NCBI GenBank assembly: GCA_001600815.1
Contig: BCKZ01000013.1
Location: 459,621-523,620 of the forward strand
DNA: 64,000 nt
Source of the DNA: Alloascoidea hylecoeti
Lineage: Eukaryota
Direction: 5' to 3'
Shown here: in pieces, positions 1-30,125 of the stretch
How positions within the stretch are numbered: the first letter of the stretch is position 1
How the letters are laid out: each line of letters opens with the position of its first letter
Made by a program: the position numbers and the translations under genes
Notes under the pieces: generated by a model
Told to the model about the DNA's origin: nothing
Databases searched by the model: none
The model's input: the letters and a program-made list of their open reading frames with translations, nothing else

Positions 1-810
1 ATTAGATCATCAAATTCTGTATTAAGTGCTACTAGTATAAGTATGAGCAGTTCACTTGCAGCCTCAACTTCGGGAAGTAAAAGCTACGGACAATCAAGTA
101 CCATCAGTTTGACAGCAGTTCCAAGTACAATTACGAGTTCCTATAGCTCAGGATCATATGTCACAACAGTCTCAAGCCTTGATAGTAGTTTCACATCCAA
201 TAGCGATATAACAACAATTCCTGTATCAACCATAACTGTTATAAGAAAAATCACCTCATTTATAACTATTACTTCGGAGGGTAGAACCTATATTAAAACA
301 GGCATAATGTCAATACCTGTTCCAAGTACAATTGGTGAGGTTGAATCTACTTCTACTGGTGTAGGAAGTTCGATTACAACTTATAGTTCAAAATCAGATG
401 GACCAAGAGTTGCAATCCCTGATAGCAGTATCACATCCGATGGTGATAAATCATCAGATTATGCGACAACCATAACAACTGTTATGTCCATACATAATGC
501 ACCTTCAGGATCAAGTTTGAGTAATCCAGCTAATGTCGGGCCAATGACAGGTCCAAATGGTGAATCTCCAAGAGGTGGCAGCTACAGTCCAATTGAGTCT
601 CTTTCAAATCCATCTCCGGATAACCCAAGTATTAATACTGATTCAGCTTCAAATTCTAATGAACCAAGTTCAAGTACCAGTGGATCAAACGGTTTTGGAT
701 TTCCTCCTAGAATAGTTCCAGTTACATTCGATTCCTCTTCCAGTGGGATTACAGTATCTTTACTTCTGACTATTGGTATTCTTATTTCTCAATACATTAT
801 TTTTTATTAA
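1..810 (+). CDS. C-terminal part of Ser/Thr-rich, probably GPI-anchored cell-wall protein (5' truncated by window edge)
   Basis: Frame is open from base 1 (IRSSNSVLSATSIS then M43). Ser/Thr-rich low complexity, ending ...TFDSSSSGITVSLLLTIGILISQYIIFY (small residues plus hydrophobic tail, GPI-signal-like). Confidence 0.75.
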   Translation: MRSSNSVLSATSISMSSSLAASTSGSKSYGQSSTISLTAVPSTITSSYSSGSYVTTVSSLDSSFTSNSDITTIPVSTITVIRKITSFITITSEGRTYIKTGIMSIPVPSTIGEVESTSTGVGSSITTYSSKSDGPRVAIPDSSITSDGDKSSDYATTITTVMSIHNAPSGSSLSNPANVGPMTGPNGESPRGGSYSPIESLSNPSPDNPSINTDSASNSNEPSSSTSGSNGFGFPPRIVPVTFDSSSSGITVSLLLTIGILISQYIIFY

Positions 811-1550
811 AACCTAAAACTACTTGGAATTCTGATCATAAAATAATTTAAATTAATTTATTTATTAATCTTTCAATCATTTAAAGATTCTCCTTATATT
901 ATTATATTACTATTACATTCTAAGTTCTAACTCAAAGAATATTAAAGTTGTTTTAATGATGTATATATTTCATAGGTGAATATTATAAAAAAAATTCCTT
1001 CTTTAAATTTATTTTCATCTTAAGAATACAATAAATTTAAATTATAAATATAGTAATTCTATCCCATATACTTTAAGTGATCATGTGTTGTCCCTTGGGA
1101 ATATGAATGTGTAGAAATTTTGTATGTGTTGTATGTATAAATATCATAGTTTTCCGTATATATACGTATATAAGCTTAAGAAAATACAATGTTCATCTGT
1201 TTTGAATTTGGCACCATGTTGATGATTTAGACTTTAGCAATGCGCTTGACATTAATTAATTATAGTGATCCAAGTGCAATATGTAATTACACTCACCACG
1301 AAACCTTTAATATAATTAATTCAATATTCTCAAGATATAATGATACACTTAAAGATCTGAACGATGTTAAAGTGTTTCAAATTGATCAGTTGGTGTGTCT
1401 TGTCCTGGAATATTACGTTTAGGCCTATATTTAAAGTTGTCAAATGGCTCCATATTTTATTGGAACATTACAGTTGATTAATTTTAAACATAGAGTTAAA
1501 GAACTAAAGACTAAATACTAATACAAGACTATTACAAGTATTACCAAATG

Positions 1551-1610
1551 GTCGGAATTTTAGAGTTACAATTAGAAAACGTCAGAATTTTAGAGTTACA
1601 ATTAGAAAAT
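1551..1610. repeat. 30-bp tandem duplication (2 copies)
   Basis: gtcggaattttagagttacaattagaaaac followed by gtcagaattttagagttacaattagaaaat. Confidence 0.9.
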
Positions 1611-2862
1611 GGCTTTGAAGGTTAATTTGAAAAACTTGGTATACCCACTACATACTTTATATGTGTTATAAATTTGTTTTACTATGGTTATCTTTACCAG
1701 ATGTGTCTTTCAATAAATTTCAAGAACAGTACTAAAATAGTAAATATTAGACTTTATAAAGACTAGGTAATTTATAATATTTCCTAACCTTATTTATTGG
1801 ATATATAGTTATATAATTAAATTAGAATAGTTTTTGTTATTACATAGTTTCATATATATGGGGTGATATTTATGAAGATCTTCATTTCCCTTATATATTA
1901 GCGAGTTGCCACATTATTTAGTTTTAGAAAAACACACGTTCTTTATAATATAAACTTATTACCAACTATGCCTCCGAAGCAATTCAAGGACATCGCCACT
2001 GATGAGCCCATAACCCAACATTATTTTATCTTATTATATCATCTTACGAGGCGGAATATATATTAAACAGTCCAGTGAGGCCATGCATAATAGAGGTTAG
2101 TTAGATTCATAAAGCAAGTTCAATACCAAAGACAAGACAGCTTTTAAAGGTAACGACGTCAATTAATAAGCCCGAGTTTGTATACCATAAATAATCTAGC
2201 TATTTTTAATAAAGAGGTGGTCAATCATTATTCACCAACATGGCTAAACATTAGTGCATTGAATGGAAGAATACTAATATTGTATTTCCGTCTTCGGATT
2301 CATTTTTTATTTCCTTGGTTTATGTTTTATCAAGCCAGACATTTCGTATCATCTGGCTCAAATTAAGTTGAATAACTGCATAATTTCACCTAAAATATTT
2401 TCTGTGGCTAATTAGTGTCCTTTAATTAAACTTCATTGGGTACACATGTAATCTTAAGGAATCTATCACCAAGTGGTTCTAAATTACTTATAAGATCTTT
2501 TATTAGAGTTATACGCGACAGTGAACTTTACGTCAATTAATTTTAGATTTAAACTTAAAACTTTATTCAAAATACTAAATACTTTATTTTATATGTTGAC
2601 TAATATTCGGCCAAACTTAACTTTAAATTCGTGGTTGCGTTGAGAAACTGTTTTTCTGATTTACTTCTCATACAGTAATCACAAACTTAAAATGAAACCT
2701 TATACTTTATGTATGGGTCATGCAACTGCCATATATGGTATCTCTAAATCATTTGAAAAAAAATGAAGCATTTGAACCATACTTTGTTGGATATTGGCAC
2801 CTTCCTGTATATTCAAACAGTATACTATATTAAATTTAATATCACAATAATTTTAATTAAAA

Positions 2863-3555
2863 ATGTCAACGCAAGCCGTACTACCAGCTATAAAACGTTT
2901 AACCAAAGATTATAAATATATTGTGGAACATCCTTCTCCAAATTTGAGAGCTCATCCTACAAATGATAATATTTTCTTTTGGTATTTTGTATTCATTGGT
3001 CCCCCGGATACACCCTACGCCAATGGTCAATATTTTGGAAATATCCGTTTTCCAAGAAATTATCCACATAGTCTTCCAGAAGTTTTCATCCATACACCAA
3101 ATGGACGATTCAAAACGAGTAGGAGCATTTGTTTACGGTTTGCTGATACTCAATATTGGAGTTTAAATATAAGTGTTAACGCTGTGTTATTAGGTATTGT
3201 TACATTTATGTGTACGACCGATGCTAGGACCACAGGTTCGGTGAGTACCAGTTCAGAAACAAGAATTAAATTGGCAAAGGATTCAAAACGGACAAACTGT
3301 GAAAATATCAAACGTTTTAAAACTGAATTTCCCGAATTATATAAACGGAATATGAAAGAATTGGGAAATGATATAGAACCTAAAAAGGAATTACCATTGA
3401 GTGTAACAGACAATAATAATAGTAAGGCTAACCAGACAGTTACGAAAGATGCACAACCGAAGGAGAAACGTGGTATATCAAGATTGTTTTCAAAATTCAG
3501 CTTAAGGAAAAAAAATAATCTTCAAAATTTGACCATAGTGAATACAGCTACATAG
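2863..3555 (+). CDS. UBC6/UBE2J2-family ubiquitin-conjugating enzyme paralogue A, no TM anchor
   Basis: KRLTKDYK, GPPDTPYANGQYFG, TPNGRF, catalytic Cys in SICL, TTGS, RFKTEFPE match yeast Ubc6. C-terminus is basic, not hydrophobic. Confidence 0.9.
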   Translation: MSTQAVLPAIKRLTKDYKYIVEHPSPNLRAHPTNDNIFFWYFVFIGPPDTPYANGQYFGNIRFPRNYPHSLPEVFIHTPNGRFKTSRSICLRFADTQYWSLNISVNAVLLGIVTFMCTTDARTTGSVSTSSETRIKLAKDSKRTNCENIKRFKTEFPELYKRNMKELGNDIEPKKELPLSVTDNNNSKANQTVTKDAQPKEKRGISRLFSKFSLRKKNNLQNLTIVNTAT

Positions 3556-4053
3556 TGGTCTATACTAATTAATGTACTCTCTATATGGATTTGTTCAGGT
3601 ATATCTCATTCAATCAAACAAATAAATATTATCTTCTATTTAAAAATAGTTATTGCAAAACAGTTAACATAATTGCAGCAAGATTGCTGTTATTAATTAT
3701 GTTAAATATTTATCCCCACAAATTCCAATTGTGAAATATGCATCAAATCATGGATGACAACTAAATGTCATAAAGTTGATCAAATAAAAATTAGCAATTG
3801 CAACATTATTTTTCCAATTGGTATGCTATTATTATTATTCTATTAATATTAATATTACTGTATTATAATAGAGTAAAGAGAGTATTGACATTTGTTGGGC
3901 AAAAAGGAGGCAGTTTTTATAATTATTAGCTACCTTATCGGTTTAGCGCTATAGGCGCGAAATGCGCATGCTGTTATCGATATTATGCATATGCGCATAT
4001 ATAATAGTAGTGTTCGTATATCGATGATGATGTGTAGCTATATATAGATTTAC

Positions 4054-4126
4054 ATAACTATAAACTTATAGCTATAATTATAAAATAATAACTATAAACT
4101 TATAGCTATAATTATACAATAATAAC
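4054..4126. repeat. 34-bp tandem duplication
   Basis: ataactataaacttatagctataattata(a/c)aata repeated at 4054 and 4088. Confidence 0.9.
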
Positions 4127-4308
4127 ATCATAACTGAAAATTAAAATTTGGAGGTCCTCAAGTTTTAAGTTGCTAATTCAAAGTTTTCAAACTACATGTC
4201 CAAGGCAGTACATCCTTCCTACCCAAAAAACAACTGGTTTCAAAACTATATAAATTGGTAAGCTCCCTTCTTGTGATGAAAAGCATACCAGTCTATAAAT
4301 AATTAACA

Positions 4309-5028
4309 ATGTCAGCAAAAGCATTATTACCTGCCTTAAAACGTTTAACTAGAGACTATAAATATATTGTCGAACATCCTTCTACTAACTTGAGAGCTCA
4401 TCCCACAAATGATAACATTTTCTTCTGGTATTTTGTATTCATTGGACCTCCGGATACACCTTATGCCAATGGTCAGTATTTTGGAAGTATCCGTTTTCCC
4501 AATGATTATCCAAATAGCCTTCCAAAAGTTTTCTTTTATACACCAAATGGGCGATTTGAGACAAATACGGAGATTTGTTTCCAGTTTGCCAACACAAAAT
4601 ACTGGGATTCAGACTTAAGTGTTAATGCTGTATTATTAGGTATTGTTACTTTTATGTGCACATCAGACGAAATCACCGCTGGCTGGATGGAAACCAATTC
4701 ACAGGTTCGAAGAGATTTTGCGAAAGAATCAAAAAGGACAAATTGTGAACAGATCAATTTATTTAAAAAAGAGTTTCCTGAATTATATGAACGGAATATG
4801 AAAGAATTGACAAGTAATGTAGAACTTGAAGAGGAATTGCCATTGACTAGAGATGTGACTACGGACACCGGCCCAGAAATTTCTAATGATCATGATAATC
4901 TTGGAAAGACTAATGCAGATAAAACTAACATTAATGCTGGAAATACCAACGAAATAAATGTTAATGTTAAAGAGAAGAAAAAACATAGACTTTCAAATTT
5001 CGTATCAAAACTTAGGAAGAAGAAATAA
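4309..5028 (+). CDS. UBC6-family E2 paralogue B, no TM anchor
   Basis: Same UBC core as copy A (TPNGRFETNTEICF). Ends KKKHRLSNFVSKLRKKK. Confidence 0.9.
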   Translation: MSAKALLPALKRLTRDYKYIVEHPSTNLRAHPTNDNIFFWYFVFIGPPDTPYANGQYFGSIRFPNDYPNSLPKVFFYTPNGRFETNTEICFQFANTKYWDSDLSVNAVLLGIVTFMCTSDEITAGWMETNSQVRRDFAKESKRTNCEQINLFKKEFPELYERNMKELTSNVELEEELPLTRDVTTDTGPEISNDHDNLGKTNADKTNINAGNTNEINVNVKEKKKHRLSNFVSKLRKKK

Positions 5029-5574
5029 CAAACGAGTGGTCTTTATTTACCTATAATTATCTAGATTAAATTATTTTTGTAGTACTATAGATCATTCGGA
5101 TAGTCATAATTAGTGATCTATACCCTTAATCTTCTCTCAGTTATAATATAGTGGTTCGTTGGTAGATTGAAAAATTATAAAAAATAGTAAACGTATAGGC
5201 TATAATAGAGAGTTAACTGACTTTTTTAAAAAAACCAAGCCTAAGACTTAATCCTCGAAACTAGAACCGAAAAGTTTACTTCAAAATCGGATCATTCGAA
5301 AATTTGAGGAAGATTACTTGTTCACAAAACTTGCTACTTATTCTTATTGCAGTTGGTGGAACAAATCACGTTTTGGAGAAATTTCCTTATACCATAATTG
5401 AAAATTAAAATTTGGAAATTCTCAAGCCTTAATTCAATTACTAGATCATGACACAGCATATCCAAGCTCTAAGGCTTCCTTCCTACTTGTTCAAAACTAT
5501 ACAAATTGGTAATCCCCCTTCTTGTACCGGTACACAATTATATATAAAAGTATAGACATCTATAAATAAAAACA

Positions 5575-5695
5575 GTAACATTTGCTATAAAACGTTTAAC
5601 CAAAGATTATATATATATTGTGGAACATCTTTCTCCGAATTTGAGAGCTCTTACACAAATGATACCATTGTCTTATGGTGTTTTGTCTTCATTGA
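5575..5695 (+). pseudogene. UBC6-like 5' fragment (copy C)
   Basis: gctataaaacgtttaaccaaagattat...gtggaacat...aatttgagagctc is near-identical to the start of copy A. No ATG; truncated after about 40 codons. Confidence 0.85.
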
Positions 5696-5996
5696 CAACT
5701 AGCGATAGGTTATATCCAAAACTTATATCCTGAGGCCGTTTGCTCTTTATAAACCCCCTTTAAATGAACTTTAGATGTTGAAATACAATTCAGTGTGTGG
5801 TTTCGAATTGGCAATATCGATGATAACAAACTTAAAGCGAAACCTTATAATCATATGCAAATTTCATGCACTCGCCATTTATGGTATCTCTAAATAACTT
5901 GTTTAAAAATCAATTGAAAAATTTAAATCATTTTCCCTTAAATTCAAACATATTGAAAATATATTAAATTTAACAAAGTAAATATTTTAATTAAGT

Positions 5997-6601
5997 ATGC
6001 CAACGGTTGATACTTTAAGTCGTTTAACAAGAGATTATAAATATATTGTCGAACATCCTTCTCCAAATTTGAGCTCATCCAAAAAATGATGATATACTCT
6101 TATGGTATTTTGTGTTCATTTGTCCTCCGGACACACCTTATACCAATGGTCAATATATTTTGGAAGTATCAGTTTCCCCGATGATTATCCAAGCAGTGTT
6201 CCAAAAGTTTACTTTTATACACCAAATGGCGATTCAAGATAAATGCATGGGTTTGCTTCCGGTTTAATGCTGTGTTATTAGGTATTGTTACATTTATGTG
6301 TACTTCAAGTGATATTACGGCTGGTTGGATAACTACTAGCTCAAAAACAAAAAATTCAAAAAGGACAAATTGTGAAAAGATCAAACTATTTAAAACCGAA
6401 TTTCCTGAATTATATGAACGGAATATGTTAGAATTGAAAAATGAAGTCAAATTTAAAAAGGAATTACCATTGAATGAAACACGCAATGATGATATTAATG
6501 CTAACAAGATTAAGACGGTAAAGAAAAATTTACAGAAGAAGAAACGAGGAATATCAAAATTTTTCCCAAGAATCTCCATATTTATAAGGAAGATGAAATA
6601 G
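5997..6601 (+). pseudogene. UBC6-like pseudogene (copy D)
   Basis: ATG 5997. Homologous to copies A/B throughout, with small indels (about 6070 and 6155) and a deletion just after the Cys codon. The 3' part is open (ORF 6272..6601). Confidence 0.88.
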
Positions 6602-7552
6602 CTTTTAAATTTTGATTAATAATTATAGCTATAGCTTATATTCATGTGTATTGTCTTATGAGAATTACAAAGAATATAGTTATATTTATATTAAAGGGTT
6701 TTGTATACCATTCGAATACGTACTCATAATTATATTAGCTATAAATTTATAGGGTGACTAGGTTTAAAGAAAGACACCATCTGAACCATCCAATCAAAAC
6801 TTTCACCATGATCATCAATCAATTTTGTATATATTTCCTACTTAACACTATAAATCTTATTTAATACTCCCAATGTGTTCTGTATCCACCGACTTATCTT
6901 GAACAACACAGGATAAATTAAAGGGGGTGTAAATAGTGGCAGCAAAGCCGGCCATGATGTTTTCAGATATCATACTCAGGCCTACCTTATCCGTGTATTC
7001 TTATCAAGAAAATTGTAAATAGATTTTGATTTCATGTATTGCCAATATATATTTTTTGGTTTGGGCGGCCTTAATTTTGTTCTGGTAGTGGGGCGCGTCG
7101 CAGGACCGCTGCGCATTTGCGGTCAATCACTTAATTCGCCACATAGTAAAACGATTCCATATTTATCTTTATTTTTATTCTATTACAATAAACTAGTGAA
7201 TCAGTAAATTATCCTCCTCTAACTTTGTAAGAAATCTGTATTACCCGTTTAACTCTGCCAAAGAGTCCCCTCTTTCCCTAGAAAATGTACCCCGTTCTCT
7301 CTCATGATCGTTGCACTCAATTAAAGTGTAACTTGATCAAAACATTTAGCAATTCTGGTCTCTTAGTTCCTTGGTTCATGATGCCTTAAGTTTCTTTACC
7401 TTACCATTTTCAGGGGTGGTGAAGTAATGAATGGGGCTTACAGTTTTAGGTGATGCGTCTAAAGACTCTAAACGCCCACACCTGTTCTATACAGTGTAGC
7501 CTACAAGCAATATATTATAATAGACTTAACATCCTTATTATTTTAAATAAGT

Positions 7553-8145
7553 ATGTCAACAGCAGACATATCGTTTAACATCCTTCTTCTAATTTGAGAG
7601 CTCATCCTACAAATATATGTTAATGATGTTATTTTCTTCTGGTAGTTTTAAATTCATTGATCCCCCAGATTATACGTTTTCCCAAAGATCATCAAAACAG
7701 TCTTCCAAAAGTTTTCTTTTATAGACTAAATAGAAGGTTGGAAACAGATAAATAGGCTTTTTTCCGGTTTATAGATAGTGAGTATTAGAATCCGGATTTA
7801 AGCGTTAATACCGTTTTATTAGTGTTGTTACTTCTAAGTATCCGATAAAGTTACCACCGGCTGGCTATGGAACTGATTCACAAACTCGAATGAAGCCTGC
7901 GAAGGGATCAAAAAGGGAAAATTGTGAAAATATCAAACTATTTAATACAGAGTTTCCTAAACTATGAACGGAATATAAAAGAATTAAAAAAATACTGTGG
8001 AAATTTGAAGAGGAATTATCATAATATTGATCGCGAAGTGAAAAATTATACCGCTGTTATTAAAAATAATGATAAAGACACGGTTAAGAGAGCCGTAAAA
8101 ACGAAAGGTGGAATGTCAAAACTAGAGAAGCATAAATCGAAGTAA
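7553..8145 (+). pseudogene. UBC6-like pseudogene (copy E)
   Basis: catccttcttctaatttgagagctcatcctacaaat, cgttttcccaaagat, ccaaaagttttcttttat and aattgtgaaaatatcaaac match A/B. Has stops and deletions; no Cys codon recognisable. Confidence 0.85.
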
Positions 8146-8720
8146 TTTTTTTGACCGTTTCAGTACCTGTAAATATTAATTTTGGTGATGATGATGAGAT
8201 CGAAAGGAATTGACAGATAAGTTAGAATTATTAGTCAAATGATTTAAATTGTAACATTTAAAAATGGCATCTAATATCTATTAAATAACGGAAATGTAAG
8301 GTTGTTAAAAAAAAGTTTTGGAGTATAGTTGGCTAGGTTAATGATTTTTCCCTCCAACTCAACGTTATACAAAATTGTTGAAGAAAAAAAAAAATTGCAA
8401 CTAATTAACAATCAACTGGCCAATATATATACAATGTTTATTCATTTGTCCAGCTCAACTATCTAGTTAAGATATAGGACAGCACATTTGTACAATAGCC
8501 ACACAATGGTCAAGTCAATATCTACTGGGTGAATGTATTCTTTCATCCACTAAATAACTTTAACATGCATAACAATTCAATATTATCTTCATGACCAATT
8601 CATTCTTTAGATCTGTTAAATTAATAAATTCAAATTTATATAAACTCTTAAAATTGAAAGTTTCCCCCCCCTTTAAATTTTATCTTCGTAAAAAAGATTA
8701 ATTTTAACTTCAAATATATT

Positions 8721-9626
8721 ATGAGTACTATTGACACAATTTTATCAAAAGATTATAAATATACATATAAACTTCAAACTCCAGGTATAATATCATCTGA
8801 TTTTCAAGCACATCCAACATATATTGAAAACAACATTTTTAAATGGTACTTTGTTATTTTTGGTCCAACAGATACAATTTACTCTCAAGGTCAATATTTT
8901 GGCAAAATTATATTCCCAGATTATGATAATTCAGAACAATGTGATTGTAATCCAATTATAATGATGTTTACACCAAATGGTAGAATCGATAGAGTATGTT
9001 GGGATATATGGGATGTTAAAGGGAAATTTTGGGAACCTAAACTAGGTATTCAATTTTTAATAAAAGGTTTAATGGATTTTATGATGTTTACCGAAAGAAA
9101 TGATCCAGATTGGGAAGTTTCAGATGATGATATTAAAACATTAGCTAAAGATTCAAAACGTGCCAATATTACAATGTTAGAATTTGAACAAGAATTTCCT
9201 GAATTATTTGAACAAAATAGAGAGGAAATACGGTTGAATGATGGTATTGATGGAATGTTACCTTTGGCTGATAATCAACATATAATTAGGGTTTTAGAAG
9301 GTCGAGATAAAAAATATAAGAAGATAATTAGGAGGTTAACTTTTGGAAATTCGAATGATATCAATATCAGAAATCAGAAATTTAGGTCTAATAAGAAAAT
9401 AAGTTTAAGAGGTCGGTTACATAATATTGTTTCAAAATTAAGAAAAGCAAATGCAAAGTTTTCAATGAAATCATATGAGTGTTCAAGATCAAGCTCAATA
9501 GCAGGAGATACTAATCGTACTGATTCCGTTGATACAATGGTGGTTCCAGAAAGTGATCATATTAACGTTAAAGACCATAAAGATAAAGGAAAAACATATA
9601 AATTTAAGAAGTTGTTGCTATTGTAA
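8721..9626 (+). CDS. Highly diverged UBC6-family E2 paralogue F
   Basis: NNIFKWYFVIFGPTDTIYSQGQYFG, FTPNGRIDRVCWD (Cys kept), LAKDSKR, FEQEFPEL; long basic C-terminal tail. Confidence 0.8.
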   Translation: MSTIDTILSKDYKYTYKLQTPGIISSDFQAHPTYIENNIFKWYFVIFGPTDTIYSQGQYFGKIIFPDYDNSEQCDCNPIIMMFTPNGRIDRVCWDIWDVKGKFWEPKLGIQFLIKGLMDFMMFTERNDPDWEVSDDDIKTLAKDSKRANITMLEFEQEFPELFEQNREEIRLNDGIDGMLPLADNQHIIRVLEGRDKKYKKIIRRLTFGNSNDINIRNQKFRSNKKISLRGRLHNIVSKLRKANAKFSMKSYECSRSSSIAGDTNRTDSVDTMVVPESDHINVKDHKDKGKTYKFKKLLLL

Positions 9627-10099
9627 CAGAGGGAAACAATGGTATGATATTTATTACTATGACAAGGCTTGATTAGATGAAATTGGTGTACATAATTAAT
9701 GAAGATCGAAGTCTAGCTTTTTTATTTTTTATTAAGGGTATAGGTAGTAGTATTAAATACATCTAAGAATGAGACTGGTGAGTAAGACTAAAGCATCCCG
9801 TGTGAGTAGTAGTCATTCGCTCGTCCATAGAGACACAATTCGCAGTATATATATGCACCACAGCATTACGTCAGCCACTCAAAGATTTGTGTGGCTTGGG
9901 CAAGAAATACGCCACCTCACGTGCTATCACGAATCCCGAAGCCACTTTTACTAATGCGCCACAAAGAGGCATAGCTATGGCGAAATAAATCAGAAAATTA
10001 ACTTAATCAATATATAATAATATAATAGGATCTCTTTGCTTCTTTTTCATCCTCTTTTTGCTGGTTGTTTCTGGCAGAATTGACTGTTTTGTTACCCTG

Positions 10100-11218
10100 A
10101 TGTCTTCTCCGTCCCCCCAGTCACACCGGCCCGGCAGTTTCACCTCCTCCACAGGTCCTGCGGCTTTGTTCACTTGTCCACACTGCTTGCAAAAGTTCAC
10201 CAGACACCACAACCTCAAGTCTCATTTGCTTATACATACACACGAGAAACCGTTTCAATGCTCGACCTGTTCATCGAAGTTTAGAAGATTACACGATTTA
10301 AAAAGACATATGAAGCTGCATACAGGTGAAAAGCCACACATCTGTGACGATTGTGGAAATCGTTTTAGTAGAGCGGATGCTCTTGTTAGGCATGTTAAAG
10401 GGCCCGGAATCTGTAAAGGGTCCAAAGTTAAAACCAACAATAAAAATGATAAAAACATAAATGGGAAACGAAGTCAAAACCACGAAGAAATAGATCATGA
10501 ACTAAATAAAAGAATGTTCTTCTCAAATTATGATCAACAAAAAAGCCCCTCGCCAGGCTCTGTTTCTGGCTCTGTCGCTACTTCTGTCAATAACAGTGAA
10601 AGCACGTCATCTTCCTCATCTACGATGGAAAATAGTCCTTCTCCTCCAAAAAATTTAAATACCAGTTCTCAAATAATCCCCTTATTAAATCATACTTCGA
10701 ACCTCCCACCCATTGTTACATTACCTCACATAAATTCAATTCAATCGAATTATCCAATGATCAATGCCAATTCTTTTAGATCTTCTCTGACAAATATTCT
10801 AAATCCTGCCCCAGCCACCACCACTACTACTTCTAGTACAGCCACCGTCTCCACTGCAGATCAAAATACTAGAACAGTACCCGCTCCACTATACACAGAT
10901 CTAATGAAAGCTCATTCCAACTACTTACAACCATCTTCACAACTAGCATCTCCTTCCAATCCCCCAATAAATCATCATCAACAATTATTGCCTCCTATCT
11001 CAAACCACGTGCAACCACCTAACCAGCACCCTACATTACCTAATACATTCACAAACACAAATTCAAATGTAAATATCAATAACACAAATACAATTGATTT
11101 ATTACCACTTGTTTCAATCTTGGAAAATAGAATCTTAGGACTTGAAACAAGATTAATGGCTGCTGAAACAAGAGTGGAATATTTAACTGATGAACTAGTT
11201 AAACAAAATCAAAAATGA
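10100..11218 (+). CDS. C2H2 zinc-finger transcription factor (3 fingers, C-terminal coiled coil)
   Basis: CPHC..H..H, CSTC..H..H, CDDC fingers with THEKPF and TGEKPH linkers. First ATG at 10100. Confidence 0.9.
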   Translation: MSSPSPQSHRPGSFTSSTGPAALFTCPHCLQKFTRHHNLKSHLLIHTHEKPFQCSTCSSKFRRLHDLKRHMKLHTGEKPHICDDCGNRFSRADALVRHVKGPGICKGSKVKTNNKNDKNINGKRSQNHEEIDHELNKRMFFSNYDQQKSPSPGSVSGSVATSVNNSESTSSSSSTMENSPSPPKNLNTSSQIIPLLNHTSNLPPIVTLPHINSIQSNYPMINANSFRSSLTNILNPAPATTTTTSSTATVSTADQNTRTVPAPLYTDLMKAHSNYLQPSSQLASPSNPPINHHQQLLPPISNHVQPPNQHPTLPNTFTNTNSNVNINNTNTIDLLPLVSILENRILGLETRLMAAETRVEYLTDELVKQNQK

Positions 11219-11238
11219 TAACTCACATTCAACAAATT

Positions 11239-11269
<31 letters not shown>

Positions 11270-12107
11270 ATAAAATAGTTTAGCTTTTGACGTGTTTTTT
11301 TTTGTAACTTATTGTTTAACATTGATATTAGTATTTGTGGTCATTTAATTTTTTTTTAAAATTTTTTTTCTGTTATTTTTAAAATTTTTGTTTAATTATA
11401 GTGTAAAACTTACTTTGATATGATTTGTGAATTAATATTCCTTGGTTTAAATTTTATAATAACTAATAGTATTATTATTAGTTATCAAGAAGTTTCTTAA
11501 GCTGGAACTTTATGGACATAAAATGATTATAGTCACCAATGATCCATGATCCGGAGGAGGCTGATACAAAGTGGGTGGTTGGTACACATTGCTACACAAC
11601 AAGAAGCTACAATTAAGGGCATCCTTCAAAACTATGTTCATACCAAATCATAAGTATATATTTACAACACTTAAAATTAGAGATTTCTAGCGTTGTATTT
11701 ATATTTCATGATCTCTTCAAATGGATCATCATCGACTTTTGTTGCATTGTGACAGAAGTGACAACCTTAAATGTATAGTAATCTAACGAGCCACTAAAGC
11801 CAAATAACCCCAACATTCTTTATCCACACGTAGTATTAATTTTTCATTCATGCAATTGGAACGTGGCAATTGTCTCGTCCATGGACAGCGCTAGCTGTAG
11901 TGTAAAATTTCTTTTTTATTTATTATAAACCTTTTTTGGCATCTCCAAAAACTGACTTGAATATTTTTTGTAATATTTGTAAGAATATAATTCATTAAGG
12001 CGACTGAACTCTAACGGGTATGAATATTCAGAACTCATAAAATTGAAGGCCATAAAAATAGAGGTAATTAAACAGTCATTTATATCATTTAATTTTGGTA
12101 ATATTCC

Positions 12108-12426
12108 CAACTAAATATTCGGCCACATATTGGTATTAAGTAAACAGTTTATGATGGACTAAATAATCGGACATATTGATGAATAATTATCGGCCATATG
12201 ACTGCCGAATCGACTATAATGACAAACGATGCACCAAATATACTTTATGTAATATGAGCCACGTTTTTGCCTGTGACTGTGATCGATATTAGTTGTGATT
12301 ATTTTTGAGCTATCATATTAGTGGCCTTTGGCGCATCATTTGGTGTTCCCTTAATTCACTCAGGAGGTTAATCAGCTTTGATGGAGTACAACTGCAGAAT
12401 TGACCACATGGCTGAATATTTAGTTG
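12108..12426. mobile_element. Putative MITE / non-autonomous DNA transposon relic
   Basis: 17/18 inverted repeat: caactaaatattcggcca (12108-12125) and tggctgaatatttagttg (12409-12426). Internal copies of the same core. No clear TSD. Confidence 0.5.
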
Positions 12427-14336
12427 AAACACGGTTTATGAGATAAAAATTAATTTCAAATTTAAAACTTTCGGCACCCTTTTCTAAAATACTTCAAATT
12501 CAGGTTCAGAGAATTATAATACTGTAATATCTGTCATTAATGTATTTTCCCCGCACCAGAGAAGGCTCTCTTATAAGCGCTAATATTCGCTACCAGGTTC
12601 GAATTCTCTTTAAATCATTTTATCTAGCGCTAGCTAATTTATAAAATTAATTGTGGCAGTTACTAATCGATATTCTAGCTTCGCATGCAATTTCTAATTG
12701 AGTCCATGAAAATGTGTCTTTTCTCAATATTTGGGAGCAGTTCATTGTAGTACCCTTGTCTATAATTAATTGCCCATATAACCTCCGACATGCTAGGTAG
12801 AGCTGCAACAAAAAAAATGTCGTTGTTTAACATCAAAACTTCATCATAAATTTCACTCTAATACTTTTGCATAAGTTTTAGAATATACCTATATGGTATA
12901 GATCTATATTTAACAACTGTGTCCGATTAATATGAAATCTTCTCTTAAGCAAAAATTAGTAAATTGCATGATGTAGCTCTCATGAATACTTTCTCGAATC
13001 GGAGAAAGAAACTATATAGTATAATCTGAAAAACAGTAATCTGTCTCTCGATTATAATTTCTAAATTTTAAATGAATATGTTAAAATTCAATTAGGAAAA
13101 TAGATCAAAAGTTTACGCCGTTAACGTTAACGTTGTTAGAATCCATTTGCATTCTAAAAGGTTTCAACTGAAGAGATTATATCATTTCGTATAGCTCGTT
13201 AGAGGTGAGGTATCAATGAATGAAATGTAGAATAAGTGAGGAGTATATGCGGATTCATGCATTTTCCTTGATAACTCGAAGAATCCCTACGAATATGGCC
13301 ATGGGTATATTATAATTAATATAACGTAAGAAAGCCGACTCCTTAATTATAAAAAACGAAAGGATGATCCCCAGATATCGATTAGCTTACTACAATAAAG
13401 CTATTTTCTCTCTATTTTACCAAGAAACTTTAGACTTATGGAACACTAATTAATTATAACATTCAATTATATTTTGGCCAATTGCAAACAAACTATTTTA
13501 TAAACAAGACTTTCTTGTTGGATTAAGTAACAACGGTCTGCTGACATTGTAATTATGTATGTGAGCCGATACATCGTTATACACAATCCATATATATAAT
13601 TACGTAACACACAGTCATATATAACTTTTAATTATAACAGATATCTATGTCATTTATATAGGTAAATAACGTGTTTAATGGATAAAAACCGCGGATTACG
13701 GGAGGTAGAAGAAATATTAACTATTATATTGAATGTTGAGTCTTCGGATCGGGTGGCTCAATTTTTAAGTTCTGAAATTTGAATTATGTCTAGGAACGAT
13801 TTGCCGAATCAGGTCATAATTTGAGTCTTCGATAGAAATCCGGGGAAGCCTACTTTAGGATTTTTCATAGAATCCCACCCATACCATAATTAGTTCAATT
13901 GATGATTTGATTGTTATACCATTGTATTATGAGCGTAGGTTGAAGACTTCCAAGACTAATATTAACAATAATAATATCAATTGTTCTATAAAAGTTCAAG
14001 TCAAACACAATTAATATTTGCAATCGTATTAATAAGTATATTTTGTATTTTATAGGAGTTCCGCCGGACAAATAACCTAAAACCAATTCCTATAAGCGAT
14101 TGTTTCAATAGATATTGAAAAAGATATCCTAATTTAGAAATTTCTTAAAATATGTAATTGAATAATTCCTGATATAATCAAAACTAAAAAAGTAGCAACC
14201 TCAGACTATCGTAATCCATTAAACTATAAAAACCCATTAATTTCCCCCTCTTTTTTATTTCAGAATTCAATTATTCAACAAATTAACTAGTTATTTGTTA
14301 TCAATTGATCTTGTTATCTTCAAAAATTTTAAAAAA

Positions 14337-24091: not shown

Positions 24092-25588
24092 ATGTCATCA
24101 ACTTTACCCTTATCTACCCTCTCAACACCAAAATATGGATCTAAGAGAGATCTTCAAAAGGCAGAATCTCAATTAAAGAACCTACTTGGAAGTGATAATG
24201 TCTCATCAGCTTCAAGTATAATTAAAAAACATGCGGATAGTGCTTCTAATTCACATCACCCAAAACCAGATCAAGAACCAGATATTGTAGTATTCCCATC
24301 ATCAACAAATGATGTTTCTAAGGTAATGAAAATTGCACATAAATATAGAATTCCTGTTATTCCATTTGGTGGTGGTACTGCTCTAGAAGGTCATTTTAAT
24401 GCAACAAGAAGAGGAATTGTTATTGATTTGAGAAGAATGGATAAAATATTAGCAGTCCATGAAAGAGATTTAGATGTCGTTGTTCAGCCTGCCGTTGGAT
24501 GGGTTGATTTAAATCAACGTTTGGCTCCTCTCGGCTTAATGTTTGGGCCGGATCCTTCTCCAGGTGCGAAAATAGGTGGGATGATTGCAACCTCATGTTC
24601 AGGTACAAATGCTTTTAGGTTTGGTACAATGAAAGAAAATGTAATTGGATTAACAGCTGTATTACCAGATGGTACAATTATCAAAACAAGAAGACGACCT
24701 AAGAAGACATCAGCAGGTTATAATTTAACAGGATTATTTGTTGGATCCGAGGGAACATTAGGAGTTATTACGGAAGCTACTTTAAAATTAGTCATTAAAC
24801 CAGAAAACGAAATTGTAATGCTCATCAATTTTAAAACAATTGAAGCAGCTGCAAATACATCAAGTGAACTTATTCGTACTGGTATTCAACTCAATGCTTT
24901 AGAAATTGTAGATGAAGATATGATGTTTACGGTTAATAAAGCAGGAAATGCATCAAGAACATATCGTGAAGAACCAACACTTTTAATTAAAGTTAGTGGG
25001 GCAAAAGAAACAATAGATCATTTAATATCAACAGTTGAAGAAATTTCTATTAAATATAATTCAACTAATTTTGAATTTGCAATTGAAGAAAAAGAAAGAG
25101 ATGAATTATGGATGGTTAGAAAACTTATGTTTTGGTCTGTTTTATTTTATGGTAAAAAAATAAATAAGAAAATGGATTGTAGAGTAACTGATTTATCTGT
25201 TCCAATAGGTCAATTATCAAAGATTATAAATGAAGCAAAGAATGATATCTCCTCAATTGGATTGAAAGCTAGAATTTTGGGTCATGTTGGTGATGGAAAT
25301 TTTCATTGTCTTGTTTTGTATAATCCGGATGAAAAGGAACTTGCTGATGAAGTCATTGAGAAATTGGCAAGAAAGGCAATTGATTTGGATGGAACATGTA
25401 CCGGAGAACATGGAATTGGATTGGGTAAGAGAGATGCTCTAGAATACGAATTGGGGACTCCTGCTATTGACTTAATGAGGAAAATCAAGCATGAAATTGA
25501 TCCTTTGAATATTATGAATCCTGATAAAGTATTTTATATGGATCCTAACGACCCAGATAAAAACTCAAACAGGACCAGCTTCTTGTAG
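24092..25588 (+). CDS. DLD1: D-lactate dehydrogenase (DLD1-type FAD-linked oxidase), copy 1, no mitochondrial presequence
   Basis: PFGGGTALEGH, GPDPSPGA, SAGYNLTGLFVGSEGTLG, GHVGDGNFH, TGEHGIG, DPLNIMNPDK. Confidence 0.88.
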   Translation: MSSTLPLSTLSTPKYGSKRDLQKAESQLKNLLGSDNVSSASSIIKKHADSASNSHHPKPDQEPDIVVFPSSTNDVSKVMKIAHKYRIPVIPFGGGTALEGHFNATRRGIVIDLRRMDKILAVHERDLDVVVQPAVGWVDLNQRLAPLGLMFGPDPSPGAKIGGMIATSCSGTNAFRFGTMKENVIGLTAVLPDGTIIKTRRRPKKTSAGYNLTGLFVGSEGTLGVITEATLKLVIKPENEIVMLINFKTIEAAANTSSELIRTGIQLNALEIVDEDMMFTVNKAGNASRTYREEPTLLIKVSGAKETIDHLISTVEEISIKYNSTNFEFAIEEKERDELWMVRKLMFWSVLFYGKKINKKMDCRVTDLSVPIGQLSKIINEAKNDISSIGLKARILGHVGDGNFHCLVLYNPDEKELADEVIEKLARKAIDLDGTCTGEHGIGLGKRDALEYELGTPAIDLMRKIKHEIDPLNIMNPDKVFYMDPNDPDKNSNRTSFL

Positions 25589-28598: not shown

Positions 28599-30125
28599 AT
28601 GGCACCTAAAAAATCAAATATAGACATCTCATCAACATTACCTTTATCTAAATTATCATCACCTATTTATGGCTCCAAAAAGGATCTTTCAAGAGCTGAA
28701 GCAGCATTAAAAAAGCTTCTTGGTAAGGAAAATGTAACGACTGTTAAAAGCATCCTTAAAAAACATTCTGATGGTGGAGCGAATGCAACACATCCAAAAC
28801 CTGGTCAAGAGCCAGATATTGTTGTATTTCCTTATGATACTCAAGAAGTATCAGAAATTATGAAAATTGCAAGTAAATACAGAATTCCTGTTATTCCATT
28901 TGGTGGTGGTACTGCTCTAGAAGGTCATTTTAATGCAACAAGAAGAGGAATTGTTATTGATTTGAGAAGAATGGATAAAATATTAGCAGTCCATGAAAGA
29001 GATTTAGATGTCGTTGTTCAGCCTGCCGTTGGATGGGTTGATTTAAATCAACGTTTGGCTCCTCTCGGCTTAATGTTTGGGCCGGATCCTTCTCCAGGTG
29101 CGAAAATAGGTGGGATGATTGCAACCTCATGTTCAGGTACAAATGCTTTTAGGTTTGGTACAATGAAAGAAAATGTAATTGGATTAACAGCTGTATTACC
29201 AGATGGTACAATTATCAAAACAAGAAGACGACCTAAGAAGACATCAGCAGGTTATAATTTAACAGGATTATTTGTTGGATCCGAGGGAACATTAGGAGTT
29301 ATTACGGAAGCTACCTTAAAATTAGTCGTTAAACCAGAAAACGAAATTGTAATTCTCATCAATTTTAAAACAATTGAAGCAGCGGCACAAACAACAAGTG
29401 ATTTAATTCGTTCCGGTATTCAATTAAATGCACTTGAAATTATGGATGAACATACCATGATTCCTATTAATGAAGCAGGAGCCTCATCAAAAGTATATCG
29501 CGAAGAACCAACACTTTTAGTTAAGGTTAGTGGATCAAAGGAAACTAGAGATCATTTAGTTGCGACAGTTGAGGAAATCGCAGTTAAAAACGATTCAACT
29601 AATTTTGAATTTGCAATAACAGAAAAGGATCGTGAAGAGTTATGGAGAGCAAGAAAAGTAATTTTATGGTCAACAATCTTTTATGGTAAGAAGCAAAATA
29701 AAGATTCGGAATGTAGAATTTCAGATATTGCTGTACCTGTTAGTCAATTAGCAACAATGGTTAATGAAGCAAGAAAAGAGGCCAAAGCTGTTGGAATGAA
29801 AGCAAGAGTGCTCGGTCATGTTGGTGATGGAAATCTTCATTTTAATGTTTTGTATACACCAGATGAAAAAGTAAAAGCAGATACTATTATTGACAATTTA
29901 GCGAAAAAGGCAATCGATCTTGATGGAACTTGTACTGGTGAACATGGTATTGGTATGGGCAAAAGGGAATTCTTGGTGTATGAGCTTGGAGAACCAGCTA
30001 TTGATTTAATGAGGAAAATCAAACAAGCAATTGATCCTTTAAATATTATGAATCCTGATAAAGTATTTTATATGGATCCCAATGATCCTGAAAGGAGGAA
30101 ACTATCCAGATGGAGTCGTCTCTAA
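28599..30125 (+). CDS. DLD1: DLD1-type D-lactate dehydrogenase, copy 2, with C-terminal PTS1 (-SRL)
   Basis: Same motifs as copy 1. Ends RRKLSRWSRL*. Confidence 0.88.
   Translation: MAPKKSNIDISSTLPLSKLSSPIYGSKKDLSRAEAALKKLLGKENVTTVKSILKKHSDGGANATHPKPGQEPDIVVFPYDTQEVSEIMKIASKYRIPVIPFGGGTALEGHFNATRRGIVIDLRRMDKILAVHERDLDVVVQPAVGWVDLNQRLAPLGLMFGPDPSPGAKIGGMIATSCSGTNAFRFGTMKENVIGLTAVLPDGTIIKTRRRPKKTSAGYNLTGLFVGSEGTLGVITEATLKLVVKPENEIVILINFKTIEAAAQTTSDLIRSGIQLNALEIMDEHTMIPINEAGASSKVYREEPTLLVKVSGSKETRDHLVATVEEIAVKNDSTNFEFAITEKDREELWRARKVILWSTIFYGKKQNKDSECRISDIAVPVSQLATMVNEARKEAKAVGMKARVLGHVGDGNLHFNVLYTPDEKVKADTIIDNLAKKAIDLDGTCTGEHGIGMGKREFLVYELGEPAIDLMRKIKQAIDPLNIMNPDKVFYMDPNDPERRKLSRWSRL

What the first reader, a model, noticed from the sequence alone, without database searches (positions are those of the whole stretch)
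2863..9626. Birth-and-death tandem array of six Ubc6-like E2 genes
Seen: three intact copies (A 2863, B 4309, F 8721) and three decayed copies (C 5575, D 5997, E 7553), head-to-tail in 7 kb. Known: UBC6 is normally a single-copy, conserved ERAD E2 that partners Doa10. Inference: a fast-turnover E2 family like this looks more like a lineage-specific ubiquitin module (stress, defence or conflict) than housekeeping.
Basis: partly seen in the sequence, partly recalled or inferred. Interest (0 to 1): 0.8.

Follow-up and report, generated by a model that had tools for sequence, protein, structure and literature searches.

The report
Tandem array of remodelled Ubc6-like E2 genes
A low-GC budding yeast carries six head-to-tail copies (three intact, three decayed) of a Ubc6-derived ubiquitin-conjugating gene that has lost its membrane anchor and two key catalytic residues but keeps its active-site cysteine, so it is probably an accessory E2 with altered chemistry rather than the housekeeping ERAD enzyme.

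Summary
Six homologous segments lie head-to-tail at the stated coordinates.

- **Intact copies:** A, B and F are open UBC-domain ORFs.
- **Decayed copies:** C is a 5' stump. D and E carry frameshifts, stops and deletions.

The proteins are nearest to Ubc6/UBE2J2 by sequence and by fold. They nevertheless form their own long-stemmed clade with three database proteins, P0002, P0003 and P0199 (99/95 support).

- **Kept in all six clade members:** the catalytic Cys and the Arg of the J2 'GRF' loop.
- **Lost in all six:** Ser89, His94 and the C-terminal membrane anchor.
- **Tail:** five of the six carry a conserved basic motif, LSxxVSKLRKK, in place of the anchor; P0199's tail only loosely resembles it.

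A and B are old duplicates (dS about 0.8-1.0) under purifying selection (omega 0.28, bootstrap 0.19-0.44). The same array, with the same pseudogenes, occurs in a second strain from a wood-decay metagenome.

'Lineage-specific and not housekeeping' is supported. 'Fast turnover' and 'stress, defence or conflict' are not shown. Expression, and whether a canonical UBC6 lies elsewhere, could not be tested: no genome is held and no RNA run holds the stretch.

Verdict: a new variant of a known kind, of moderate interest.

The parts
2863..3555 (+). Copy A: intact ORF of 230 aa, a TM-less Ubc6-like E2 with Cys at the catalytic position.
   Evidence: (UQ_con 65 bits). No CTG codons.
4309..5028 (+). Copy B: intact ORF of 239 aa, 71% identical to A over the first 180 aa.
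   Evidence: (UQ_con 70.2 bits). AF2 model: pLDDT 82.5 overall, core above 90. Best fold match is Ubc6 9en5, TMt 0.88.
5569..5694 (+). Copy C: 5' stump pseudogene. No ATG, frameshifted, and the rest of the gene is missing.
   Evidence: 5569-5649 and 5634-5693 in two frames. (89% nt identity to A 2887-2998)..
5393..5568 (+). B-type upstream region kept in front of C. It is similar to 4129-4308, upstream of B.
   Evidence: 4129-4444 aligns to 5393-5694 at 71% over 320 nt.
5997..6601 (+). Copy D: pseudogene. The N-terminal half is broken by frameshifts and stops, and 36 bp after the Cys codon are deleted. The last 139 codons are still open, including an ATG ORF at 6296-6601 (101 aa) that holds the basic C-terminal motif.
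   Evidence: The 3' half has omega 0.54 against A and 0.30 against B.
5823..5996 (+). A-type upstream region in front of D. It is similar to 2678-2862, upstream of A.
   Evidence: 2678-3488 aligns to 5823-6564 at 70.6% over 824 nt.
7553..8146 (+). Copy E: heavily decayed pseudogene. The ATG is kept, about 15 codons are missing, and it carries a 10-bp insertion, a 34-bp deletion and several stops.
   Evidence: Differences from A and B are spread nearly evenly over codon positions.
8721..9626 (+). Copy F: intact ORF of 301 aa and the most divergent member (35-37% to A/B). It has an insertion before the GRF loop, no Thr-flap, and a long basic tail that holds the conserved motif.
   Evidence: (UQ_con 28.7 bits). 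AF2 model: pLDDT 66.3 overall, UBC core 70-94.

Best explanation
This is a lineage-restricted family of E2-like genes derived from the Ubc6/UBE2J2 ('J2') ubiquitin-conjugating enzyme. It grew by repeated local tandem duplication and is now half decayed: three genes are maintained (A, B, F) and three are dead (C, D, E).

Shown:
- The proteins keep the J2-type UBC fold, the Arg of the GRF loop and the catalytic cysteine.
- They have lost the C-terminal tail anchor. In A, B, F, P0002, P0003 and the dead copy D it is replaced by a Lys/Arg-rich tail ending in a conserved motif, roughly LSxxVSKLRKK.
- The active-site loop is remodelled. Ser89 is replaced, and Tyr93-His94 are deleted (A/B type) or substituted (F).

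Inferred mechanism: the proteins are still charged with ubiquitin (or a ubiquitin-like protein) on the cysteine. They no longer work as ER tail-anchored, hydroxyl-directed ERAD E2s. Without the general-base His and the ubiquitin-tail contact Ser, they should be slow, and either lysine-restricted or otherwise re-specified. The basic C-terminal helix would place them by peripheral membrane binding, nuclear import or partner docking. They would act alongside a canonical UBC6 elsewhere in the genome, which has not been seen.
For: **Array and decay.**

**J2 origin.**
- Best PDB sequence hits are yeast Ubc6 (9en5, E 1.5e-37) and human UBE2J2 (2f4w, E 2.1e-26).
- Best fold hits are 9en5/9ewp/9eyh (TMt 0.87-0.88) and 2f4w (0.91-0.92).

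**Separate clade.** A, B, F, P0002, P0003 and P0199 split from the 34 other J2 proteins at 99/95 support on a stem of about 1.0 substitutions per site (careful tree, 40 rows chosen by me). The quick tree of 93 rows gives the same split.

**Restricted distribution.**
- HMM search of 1.84 billion representatives: the top two hits are the family's own clusters, at 387 and 305 bits. The next single-domain hit is an ordinary TM-anchored J2 at 176 bits.
- Word-indexed searches give 4 close proteins for B and only F itself for F.

**Active site.**
- In a 66-row alignment, 60 of 60 non-family J2 proteins have His at the His94 column and 0 of 6 family members do. Cys is invariant.
- Among the 148 listed hits screened, 135 of 140 recognisable domains have His at Cys+7. 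Of the five misses, three are regex mis-hits, one is a Tyr (P0143 domain 1) and one is P0199.

**Functional weight of the lost residues.** Swarnkar et al. 2024, PMC11649903, passages read.
- S89A drastically lowers all reactivity.
- His94 is needed for serine and hydroxyl reactivity and for RING-stimulated lysine discharge.
- H94N keeps lysine reactivity.

**No anchor.** The maximum Kyte-Doolittle 17-mer after residue 150 is -0.53 to 0.82 in the six family members, against 2.13-2.58 in four anchored J2 proteins.

**Conserved C-terminal motif.** It is present in A, B, F, P0002, P0003 and even the dead copy D. In P0199 my pattern did not match, and only a loose resemblance is seen by eye.

**Selection.**
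- Omega for A-B is 0.29 (NG86) or 0.22 (ML), and 0.13-0.16 in the first 125 codons.
- Bootstrap gives 0.19-0.44, with 300 of 300 replicates below 1.

**Second strain.** The wood-decay metagenome run X4 carries the whole array at about 99.7% identity, with all three ORFs still open and D and E still broken.
Against: - There is no expression evidence at all. No RNA run holds the stretch.
- No biochemical data exist, so whether the Cys is charged is inference.
- Ser89 and His94 are both lost, and S89A alone nearly abolishes Ubc6 activity. The proteins could therefore be catalytically inert.
- F scores barely above the Pfam cutoff (28.7 against 27), and its model is only moderately confident. Its active-site loop has pLDDT below 50.
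- A canonical UBC6 elsewhere is assumed, not seen.
- The polymorphism between the window and X4 gives no sign of constraint. There are 3 synonymous and 3 non-synonymous changes in the intact ORFs. That is 6 of 22 substitutions in 2,319 of the 7,101 laid bases, about the same density as outside. The numbers are too small to weigh.
- The C-terminal helix is predicted at low confidence, pLDDT 54-65.
Confidence: 0.6

Rival explanations
1. Non-catalytic 'pseudo-E2'. The fold and the cysteine are kept for binding, for example to E1, ubiquitin, Doa10 or another RING. With Ser89 and His94 gone, the proteins do not transfer ubiquitin and instead act as regulators, decoys or adaptors.
For: - Both residues whose mutation most impairs Ubc6 are absent in all six family members.
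- The active-site loop is the least confident part of the UBC core in both models: pLDDT 72 in B and below 50 in F.
- The Thr-flap is absent in F, and its Glu119 position is variable in A, P0002 and P0003.
Against: - The cysteine is invariant across members that are only about 30-40% identical. The Arg of the GRF loop, which organises the active site in Ubc6, is also kept in all six.
- Known pseudo-E2s of the UEV type lack the cysteine (recalled, not tested here).
Confidence: 0.2
2. The array holds the organism's only Ubc6. The canonical tail-anchored gene was lost, and these divergent copies now do the housekeeping ERAD job in another way.
For: - No canonical J2 gene lies in the 64-kb window, and no genome could be searched.
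- TM-less J2 proteins annotated 'E2 6' exist in other yeasts.
Against: - Absence from one window says nothing about the genome.
- Loss of the anchor, Ser89 and His94 together removes every feature tied to Doa10-dependent serine ubiquitination.
- Three paralogs that have diverged to 35% identity do not look like a conserved housekeeping gene.
Confidence: 0.08
3. Conflict or defence module. The family is driven by an arms race, for example with a virus, a killer element or a meiotic driver, and copies are gained and lost quickly.
For: - Tandem amplification with 3 of 6 copies dead, and a very long stem and long F and P0199 branches.
- The family is restricted to one lineage.
- The neighbourhood has other duplicated genes and a Ser/Thr-rich wall-type protein.
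Against: - The duplicates are old (dS 0.8 to saturated) and A/B are under purifying selection.
- Gene content is identical in two strains.
- No sign of positive selection could be sought with the DNA at hand.
- No partner or target is known.
Confidence: 0.08
4. All six copies are relics. A, B and F are open by recent history only and have no function.
For: - No expression data.
- Non-synonymous and synonymous polymorphisms are equal in number, 3 and 3.
Against: - Open frames of 230-301 codons have P about 5e-9 at this composition.
- Omega for A-B was below 1 in 300 of 300 bootstraps.
- The Cys and the C-terminal motif are conserved between members that are about 35% identical.
Confidence: 0.04

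Closest known systems
Saccharomyces cerevisiae Ubc6 (PDB 9EN5/9EWP/9EYH), the tail-anchored ERAD E2 of Doa10
   Same: - Best sequence hit (E 1.5e-37) and best fold hit (TMt 0.88, 39% identity over 172 columns).
- Shares the UBC fold without an HPN motif, the TPNGRF 'GRF loop', the catalytic Cys at the same column, and the helices after the Thr-flap.
   Different: - Arg85 is replaced by Ser, Glu or Lys, and Ser89 by Arg, Gln or Asp.
- Tyr93-His94 are deleted (A, B, P0002, P0003, P0199) or replaced (F).
- One residue is inserted before the Thr-flap in the A/B type, and F has no Thr-flap.
- There is no transmembrane tail anchor. A basic tail with a conserved LSxxVSKLRKK-like motif takes its place.
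- The proteins sit in a separate clade and are not orthologues.
Human UBE2J2 (PDB 2F4W)
   Same: Second-best sequence and fold match (E 2.1e-26; TMt 0.91-0.92). Same J2 architecture of the UBC domain.
   Different: The same differences as for Ubc6. UBE2J2 has the conserved His (His101 by the paper's numbering) and a TM anchor.
TM-less J2-type E2s of other budding yeasts, e.g. Wickerhamomyces mucosus KAH3673677.1 (P0150), W. ciferrii CCH42380.1 (P0171) and Cyberlindnera jadinii CEP21401.1 (P0292)
   Same: J2 UBC domain followed by a hydrophilic tail with no anchor. P0154 and P0161 (unnamed) even end in a basic KLSxLFKK-like motif resembling this family's.
   Different: They keep Ser89 and His94 and fall among ordinary J2 proteins in both trees. 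Many end in an acidic-hydrophobic motif such as VIELE or IVID, not the basic motif. No tandem array is known for them; their loci were not examined.
UEV-type pseudo-E2s (Mms2/Uev1) - recalled, not tested here
   Same: UBC-fold proteins whose catalytic machinery is degraded and which act by binding.
   Different: UEVs lack the catalytic cysteine, whereas this family keeps it in every intact member. UEVs derive from a different E2 branch.

Membership tests
E2 / UBC superfamily (Pfam PF00179 UQ_con) | UBC-domain profile match above the curated cutoff | tested here: met
   A 65 bits, B 70.2 bits and F 28.7 bits against a cutoff of 27.
E2 / UBC superfamily | UBC alpha/beta fold | tested here: met
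   In the AF2 model of B the core pLDDT is above 90, and 450 of the 500 PDB matches counted by Foldseek have E <= 0.001; every listed match is an E2. F's core has pLDDT 70-94.
E2 / UBC superfamily | Catalytic cysteine | tested here: met
   The Cys is an invariant column in the 9-, 66- and 67-row alignments.
J2 family (Ubc6/UBE2J2) | GRF loop with Arg79 in place of the HPN motif | tested here: met
   TPNGRF in A, B, P0002 and P0003; TPNGRI in F; TPNGRV in P0199. The feature is defined in PMC11649903.
J2 family (Ubc6/UBE2J2) | Ser89 two residues after the catalytic Cys (contacts the ubiquitin tail) | tested here: not met
   The position holds Arg (A, P0003), Gln (B, P0002, P0199) or Asp (F). By contrast, 129 of 140 J2 domains in the hit list have Ser or Thr there.
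J2 family (Ubc6/UBE2J2) | Conserved His94 (general base) with Tyr93 in the active-site loop | tested here: not met
   Tyr93-His94 are a 2-residue deletion in the A/B type and P0199, and read 'VKG' in F. Counts are 0 of 6 family members against 60 of 60 others.
J2 family (Ubc6/UBE2J2) | Thr-flap (Glu119, Thr121, Thr122) | tested here: inconclusive
   The flap reads D-E-I-T-A in B, D-A-R-T-T in A, D-G-L-T-I in P0002 and D-V-I-T-T in P0003. F has no recognisable flap.
J2 family (Ubc6/UBE2J2) | C-terminal transmembrane tail anchor | tested here: not met
   The maximum hydropathy of a 17-mer after residue 150 is -0.53 to 0.82, against 2.13-2.58 in four anchored members.
UBC6 orthologue (ERAD E2 of Doa10) | Groups with yeast Ubc6 orthologues in a tree | tested here: not met
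   The family forms a separate clade at 99/95 support on a long stem, and likewise at 99.
UBC6 orthologue (ERAD E2 of Doa10) | ER localisation and work with Doa10 | not testable with these tools

The most novel reading that the evidence does not exclude
These genes define a new subclass of J2-derived E2s. Nature has removed the general-base histidine and the ubiquitin-tail serine and swapped the tail anchor for a conserved basic amphipathic helix. The result would be a soluble or peripherally bound E2 with a different nucleophile preference (lysine-only, or a stable thioester carrier) and its own partner E3. The family would be kept in several diverged copies because the paralogs serve different targets, possibly under conflict-driven birth-and-death.
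Probability: 0.2. Interest if true: 0.65.

Novelty: new variant of a known kind. Interest (0 to 1): 0.45.

Why it matters
The J2 E2s are the best-understood case of non-lysine (serine) ubiquitination. The 2024 Ubc6 structure work tied that chemistry to Ser89, His94 and the Thr-flap (PMC11649903).

Here a natural clade has kept the cysteine and the fold under purifying selection while deleting exactly those residues and the membrane anchor. If the proteins are active, they are a natural test of which features set E2 chemoselectivity and location. If they are inert, they are a cysteine-bearing pseudo-E2 family.

Either way the biological reach is narrow. The family is seen in one yeast lineage only, and nothing is yet known of its expression or phenotype.

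Tried and rejected
- **Whole genome.** Not held.
- **Expression.** No RNA holder was listed for 2600-9700. The one metatranscriptome from the same study as X4 (X8) laid nothing. This says nothing about expression.
- **JGI metagenome contigs.** A scan with the A/B-type alignment gave 2 loci at 35% identity, which are ordinary J2 genes and of no use.
- **Rfam.** Nothing in 1-13000 at E <= 0.1.
- **Earlier findings of this scan.** Nothing by place, sequence or words.
- **Literature.** Four searches found no report of Ubc6/J2 tandem arrays or of this subfamily in yeasts (one search was a mistyped term). I saw listings only, except PMC11649903, of which I read passages.
- **Organism.** The RRD1 neighbour's best named hits are only 45-51% identical and come from scattered orders (Sugiyamaella, Yarrowia, Brettanomyces, Pachysolen). 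I could place the yeast no more finely than Saccharomycotina-like.
- **Origin of P0002, P0003 and P0199.** All are unnamed proteins on short NCBI contigs. I could not tell whether they are further paralogs of the same genome or orthologues in sister species.
- **Recent gene conversion between A and B.** No identical tract was found; identity in 60-nt windows is 0.55-0.90.
- **STRE (AGGGG) sites as a stress hint.** 6 of the window's 27 matches fall in 5515-8672, but none lies upstream of A or B, and the window total is below the shuffled mean (27 against 37.9). I dropped this as post hoc.
- **Multi-domain hits.** P0143, P0144, P0145, P0147 and P0148 scored high only because they hold 2-4 J2 domains. 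Four of the five keep ordinary J2 features; P0147 is itself very divergent. None is a member.

Full report
**What is there**

The window is AT-rich (about 30% G+C). It is clearly from a budding yeast. Its large ORFs include Nup192, Vps36, RRD1/PTPA, a peroxisomal ABC transporter, cytochrome-c-peroxidase-like, fungal Zn-cluster factors and an aspartyl protease.

tblastn of the three long ORFs against the whole window finds six homologous segments on the + strand and no other hit below E 0.1.

| Copy | Coordinates | State |
|---|---|---|
| A | 2863-3555 | intact, 230 aa |
| B | 4309-5028 | intact, 239 aa |
| C | 5569-5693 | 5' stump |
| D | 5997-6598 | broken |
| E | 7564-8018 | broken |
| F | 8721-9626 | intact, 301 aa |

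A, B and F match Pfam UQ_con at 65, 70.2 and 28.7 bits, against a cutoff of 27. None has a CTG codon, so the reading does not depend on the yeast's CUG usage.

The DNA alignment and translations show how the other three are broken.
- C is a stump of about 125 bp with no ATG and a frameshift.
- D keeps its ATG. It has a 2-bp deletion, a 2-bp insertion, a 1-bp deletion, in-frame stops, and 36-bp and 15-bp deletions.
- E lacks its first ~15 codons and carries a 10-bp insertion, a 34-bp deletion and several stops.

About 180 bp of upstream sequence was copied along with the genes.

**Not chance, and not all dead**

With this window's composition a codon is a stop with probability 0.080. An open run of 230 codons then has P about 5e-9.

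A and B differ at dS 0.78-0.99 and dN 0.22. Omega is 0.29 (NG86) or 0.22 (ML), and 0.13-0.16 over the first 125 codons. A codon bootstrap gives 0.19-0.44, with 300 of 300 replicates below 1.

Differences between A and B pile up at third positions (0.23/0.22/0.38). Against E they are nearly flat (0.36/0.28/0.37).

D's last 139 codons are still open (P about 1e-5). They give omega 0.54 against A and 0.30 against B, with dS to A only 0.47. D is therefore a later offshoot of the A lineage that died fairly recently, or its 3' ORF (6296-6601) is still used.

**A second strain**

No RNA run holds the stretch. Contigs of a wood-decay metagenome run (X4, a separate study) cover all 7.1 kb laid, with 22 substitutions and 3 small insertions.

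All three ORFs stay open in X4.
- A has 1 synonymous and 2 non-synonymous changes.
- B has 1 of each.
- F has 1 synonymous change.

D and E keep their lesions, and E gains a further 4-bp insertion. The whole arrangement, pseudogenes included, is thus shared by at least two strains. The polymorphism counts are too small to show constraint: 6 of 22 changes fall in the 2,319 nt of intact ORF.

**What the proteins are**

The best PDB sequence matches of B are yeast Ubc6 (9en5, E 1.5e-37) and human UBE2J2 (2f4w, E 2.1e-26). Ordinary E2s follow at about 1e-17.

The AF2 model of B (66-row alignment; pLDDT 82.5 overall, core above 90) superposes best on Ubc6 (TMt 0.88) and UBE2J2 (0.91-0.92). F folds as a UBC domain with moderate confidence: the core is 70-94 and the active-site loop is below 50.

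**How far the family reaches**

- A word-indexed search with B finds four close proteins: B itself, an A allele, P0002 (253 aa, 68%) and P0003 (226 aa, 66%). Identity then drops to 33-42% in ordinary J2 enzymes. This is 17 hits among 215 candidates.
- A search with F finds only F (1 hit among 331 candidates).
- An exhaustive profile search of 1.84 billion representatives returns 8,160 proteins at E <= 0.001. The family's own two clusters stand far above the rest, at 387 and 305 bits. The next single-domain hit is a normal anchored J2 at 176 bits.
- Five higher-looking hits hold 2-4 J2 domains and are not members.
- One further hit, P0199 (504 aa, unnamed), shares the family's peculiar active-site loop.

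Two trees agree on the clade.
- In the careful tree of 40 rows that I chose, the six proteins (A, B, F, P0002, P0003, P0199) are split from the 34 others at 99/95 on a stem of about 1.0. A pairs with P0003 (93/92) and B with P0002 (89/87).
- The quick tree used 93 of the 162 rows available. I left out the five multi-domain proteins and the lower-ranked hits. It gives the same six-member clade at 99.
- F and P0199 are long branches, so their exact position inside the clade is unsure.

The A/B split is thus older than whatever separates A from P0003 and B from P0002. I could not tell whether those are sister-species orthologues or a second locus in the same genome.

**What has changed relative to Ubc6**

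Passages of Swarnkar et al. 2024 (PMC11649903) define the J2 signature.
- A GRF loop, with Arg79, replaces the HPN motif.
- Cys87 is the catalytic residue.
- Ser89 and Glu119 hold the ubiquitin tail.
- Arg85, Asp92 and Tyr93 lie over the cysteine.
- His94 acts as general base.

The same paper reports that S89A drastically lowers all reactivity. H94A/Q/N abolish serine reactivity and impair RING-stimulated lysine discharge, while H94N keeps lysine reactivity.

In the alignment to the 9en5 chain, B has Glu85, Cys87, Gln89 and Asn92, and a two-residue gap at Tyr93-His94. Across the 66-row alignment:
- the Cys is invariant;
- 60 of 60 non-family proteins have the His and 0 of 6 family members do;
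- position 89 is Arg, Gln or Asp in the family.

In the 148 listed hits screened, 135 of 140 recognisable domains have His at Cys+7. The five misses are three regex artefacts, one Tyr and P0199.

The GRF loop is kept (GRF, GRI or GRV). The Thr-flap is partly kept in the A/B type and lost in F.

None of the six has a hydrophobic tail. The maximum 17-mer hydropathy is -0.53 to 0.82, against 2.13-2.58 in anchored controls. Loss of the anchor is not rare in itself: 47 of the 129 listed hits of at least 200 aa lack one by this rough measure, including named Wickerhamomyces and Cyberlindnera proteins.

What is special is the combination with the lost Ser and His, and the conserved basic C-terminal motif. 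That motif reads GISRLFSKFSLRKK in A, RLSNFVSKLRKKK in B, RLHNIVSKLRKAN in F, and is present even in the dead copy D. The models place a low-confidence helix there.

**Interpretation**

Shown:
- a lineage-restricted clade derived from J2 E2s;
- amplification in tandem;
- three members under selection and three dead;
- fold, GRF arginine and Cys retained;
- anchor, Ser89 and His94 gone.

Inferred:
- The proteins are still charged on the cysteine, because it is the one active-site residue that never changes among members as little as 30-40% identical.
- They have given up hydroxyl-directed, ER-anchored ERAD work for something else.
- Their location or partner is set by the basic tail.

The main rival is a non-catalytic, cysteine-bearing pseudo-E2. 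The duplicates are old, constrained, and identical in content in two strains.

On the third, dN/dS is clearly below 1.

**Limits**

- There is no genome, no RNA, and no DNA for P0002, P0003 or P0199.
- The organism is not identified.
- The trees rest on about 180 columns and contain two very long branches.
- The literature negative rests on four keyword searches of open-access text.

Noticed in passing
window 24092-25588 and 28599-30125: Two D-lactate-dehydrogenase-like (FAD-oxidase) paralogs are 78% identical in protein. They contain a DNA tract of about 450 bp (roughly 24392-24840) that is 98-100% identical, while the flanks are 68-78% identical. This looks like a recent gene-conversion tract.
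   Followed up: partly
window 6185-6601 (ATG ORF 6296-6601): The 3' half of pseudogene D stays open for 139 codons (P about 1e-5 by composition). It still encodes the Thr-flap region, the helices and the basic C-terminal motif. It could be a recently dead gene or a truncated product that is still used.
   Followed up: partly
window 1-810: A Ser/Thr-rich ORF runs off the window's start. It has an internal 120-bp repeat (123-242 against 366-485, 70% identical) and a hydrophobic C-terminus, which suggests a GPI-type cell-wall protein. It has no Pfam match.
   Followed up: no
window 6989-7029 and about 7075-7130: A 41-bp stretch is shared with other contigs of runs X1 and X4, seen as loose ends on both sides. 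Next to it lies an unusually G+C-rich patch between D and E. This may be a dispersed repeat. There is no Rfam match.
   Followed up: no
window 2922 and 2925: Runs X1 and X3, flagged as possible sources of this DNA, read C and C where the window has T and G. Both changes are synonymous in A. X4 agrees with the window. The 71-nt contig involved may come from a paralog elsewhere or from a strain difference.
   Followed up: no
database proteins P0156, P0158, P0169, P0171, P0180, P0205, P0211, P0262: Eight of the 148 listed J2 hits screened are TM-less and end in an acidic-hydrophobic motif such as VIELE, IVID or VIVLD, which resembles a SUMO-interaction motif. They include the W. ciferrii protein and the cluster whose C. 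jadinii members are named 'E2 6'. This looks like a separate anchor-less Ubc6-like subfamily in yeasts.
   Followed up: partly
database proteins P0143, P0144 (same 1.74-Mb ENA contig), P0145: Proteins of 674-739 aa hold two complete J2 UBC domains joined by long low-complexity linkers. In P0143 the first domain has Tyr in place of His94.
   Followed up: no
window 5515-8672: Six of the window's 27 AGGGG/CCCCT (STRE-like) matches fall in this 3.2-kb stretch. One lies 49 bp before F's ATG and none lies upstream of A or B. This is a post hoc observation, and the window total is below the shuffled mean.
   Followed up: partly
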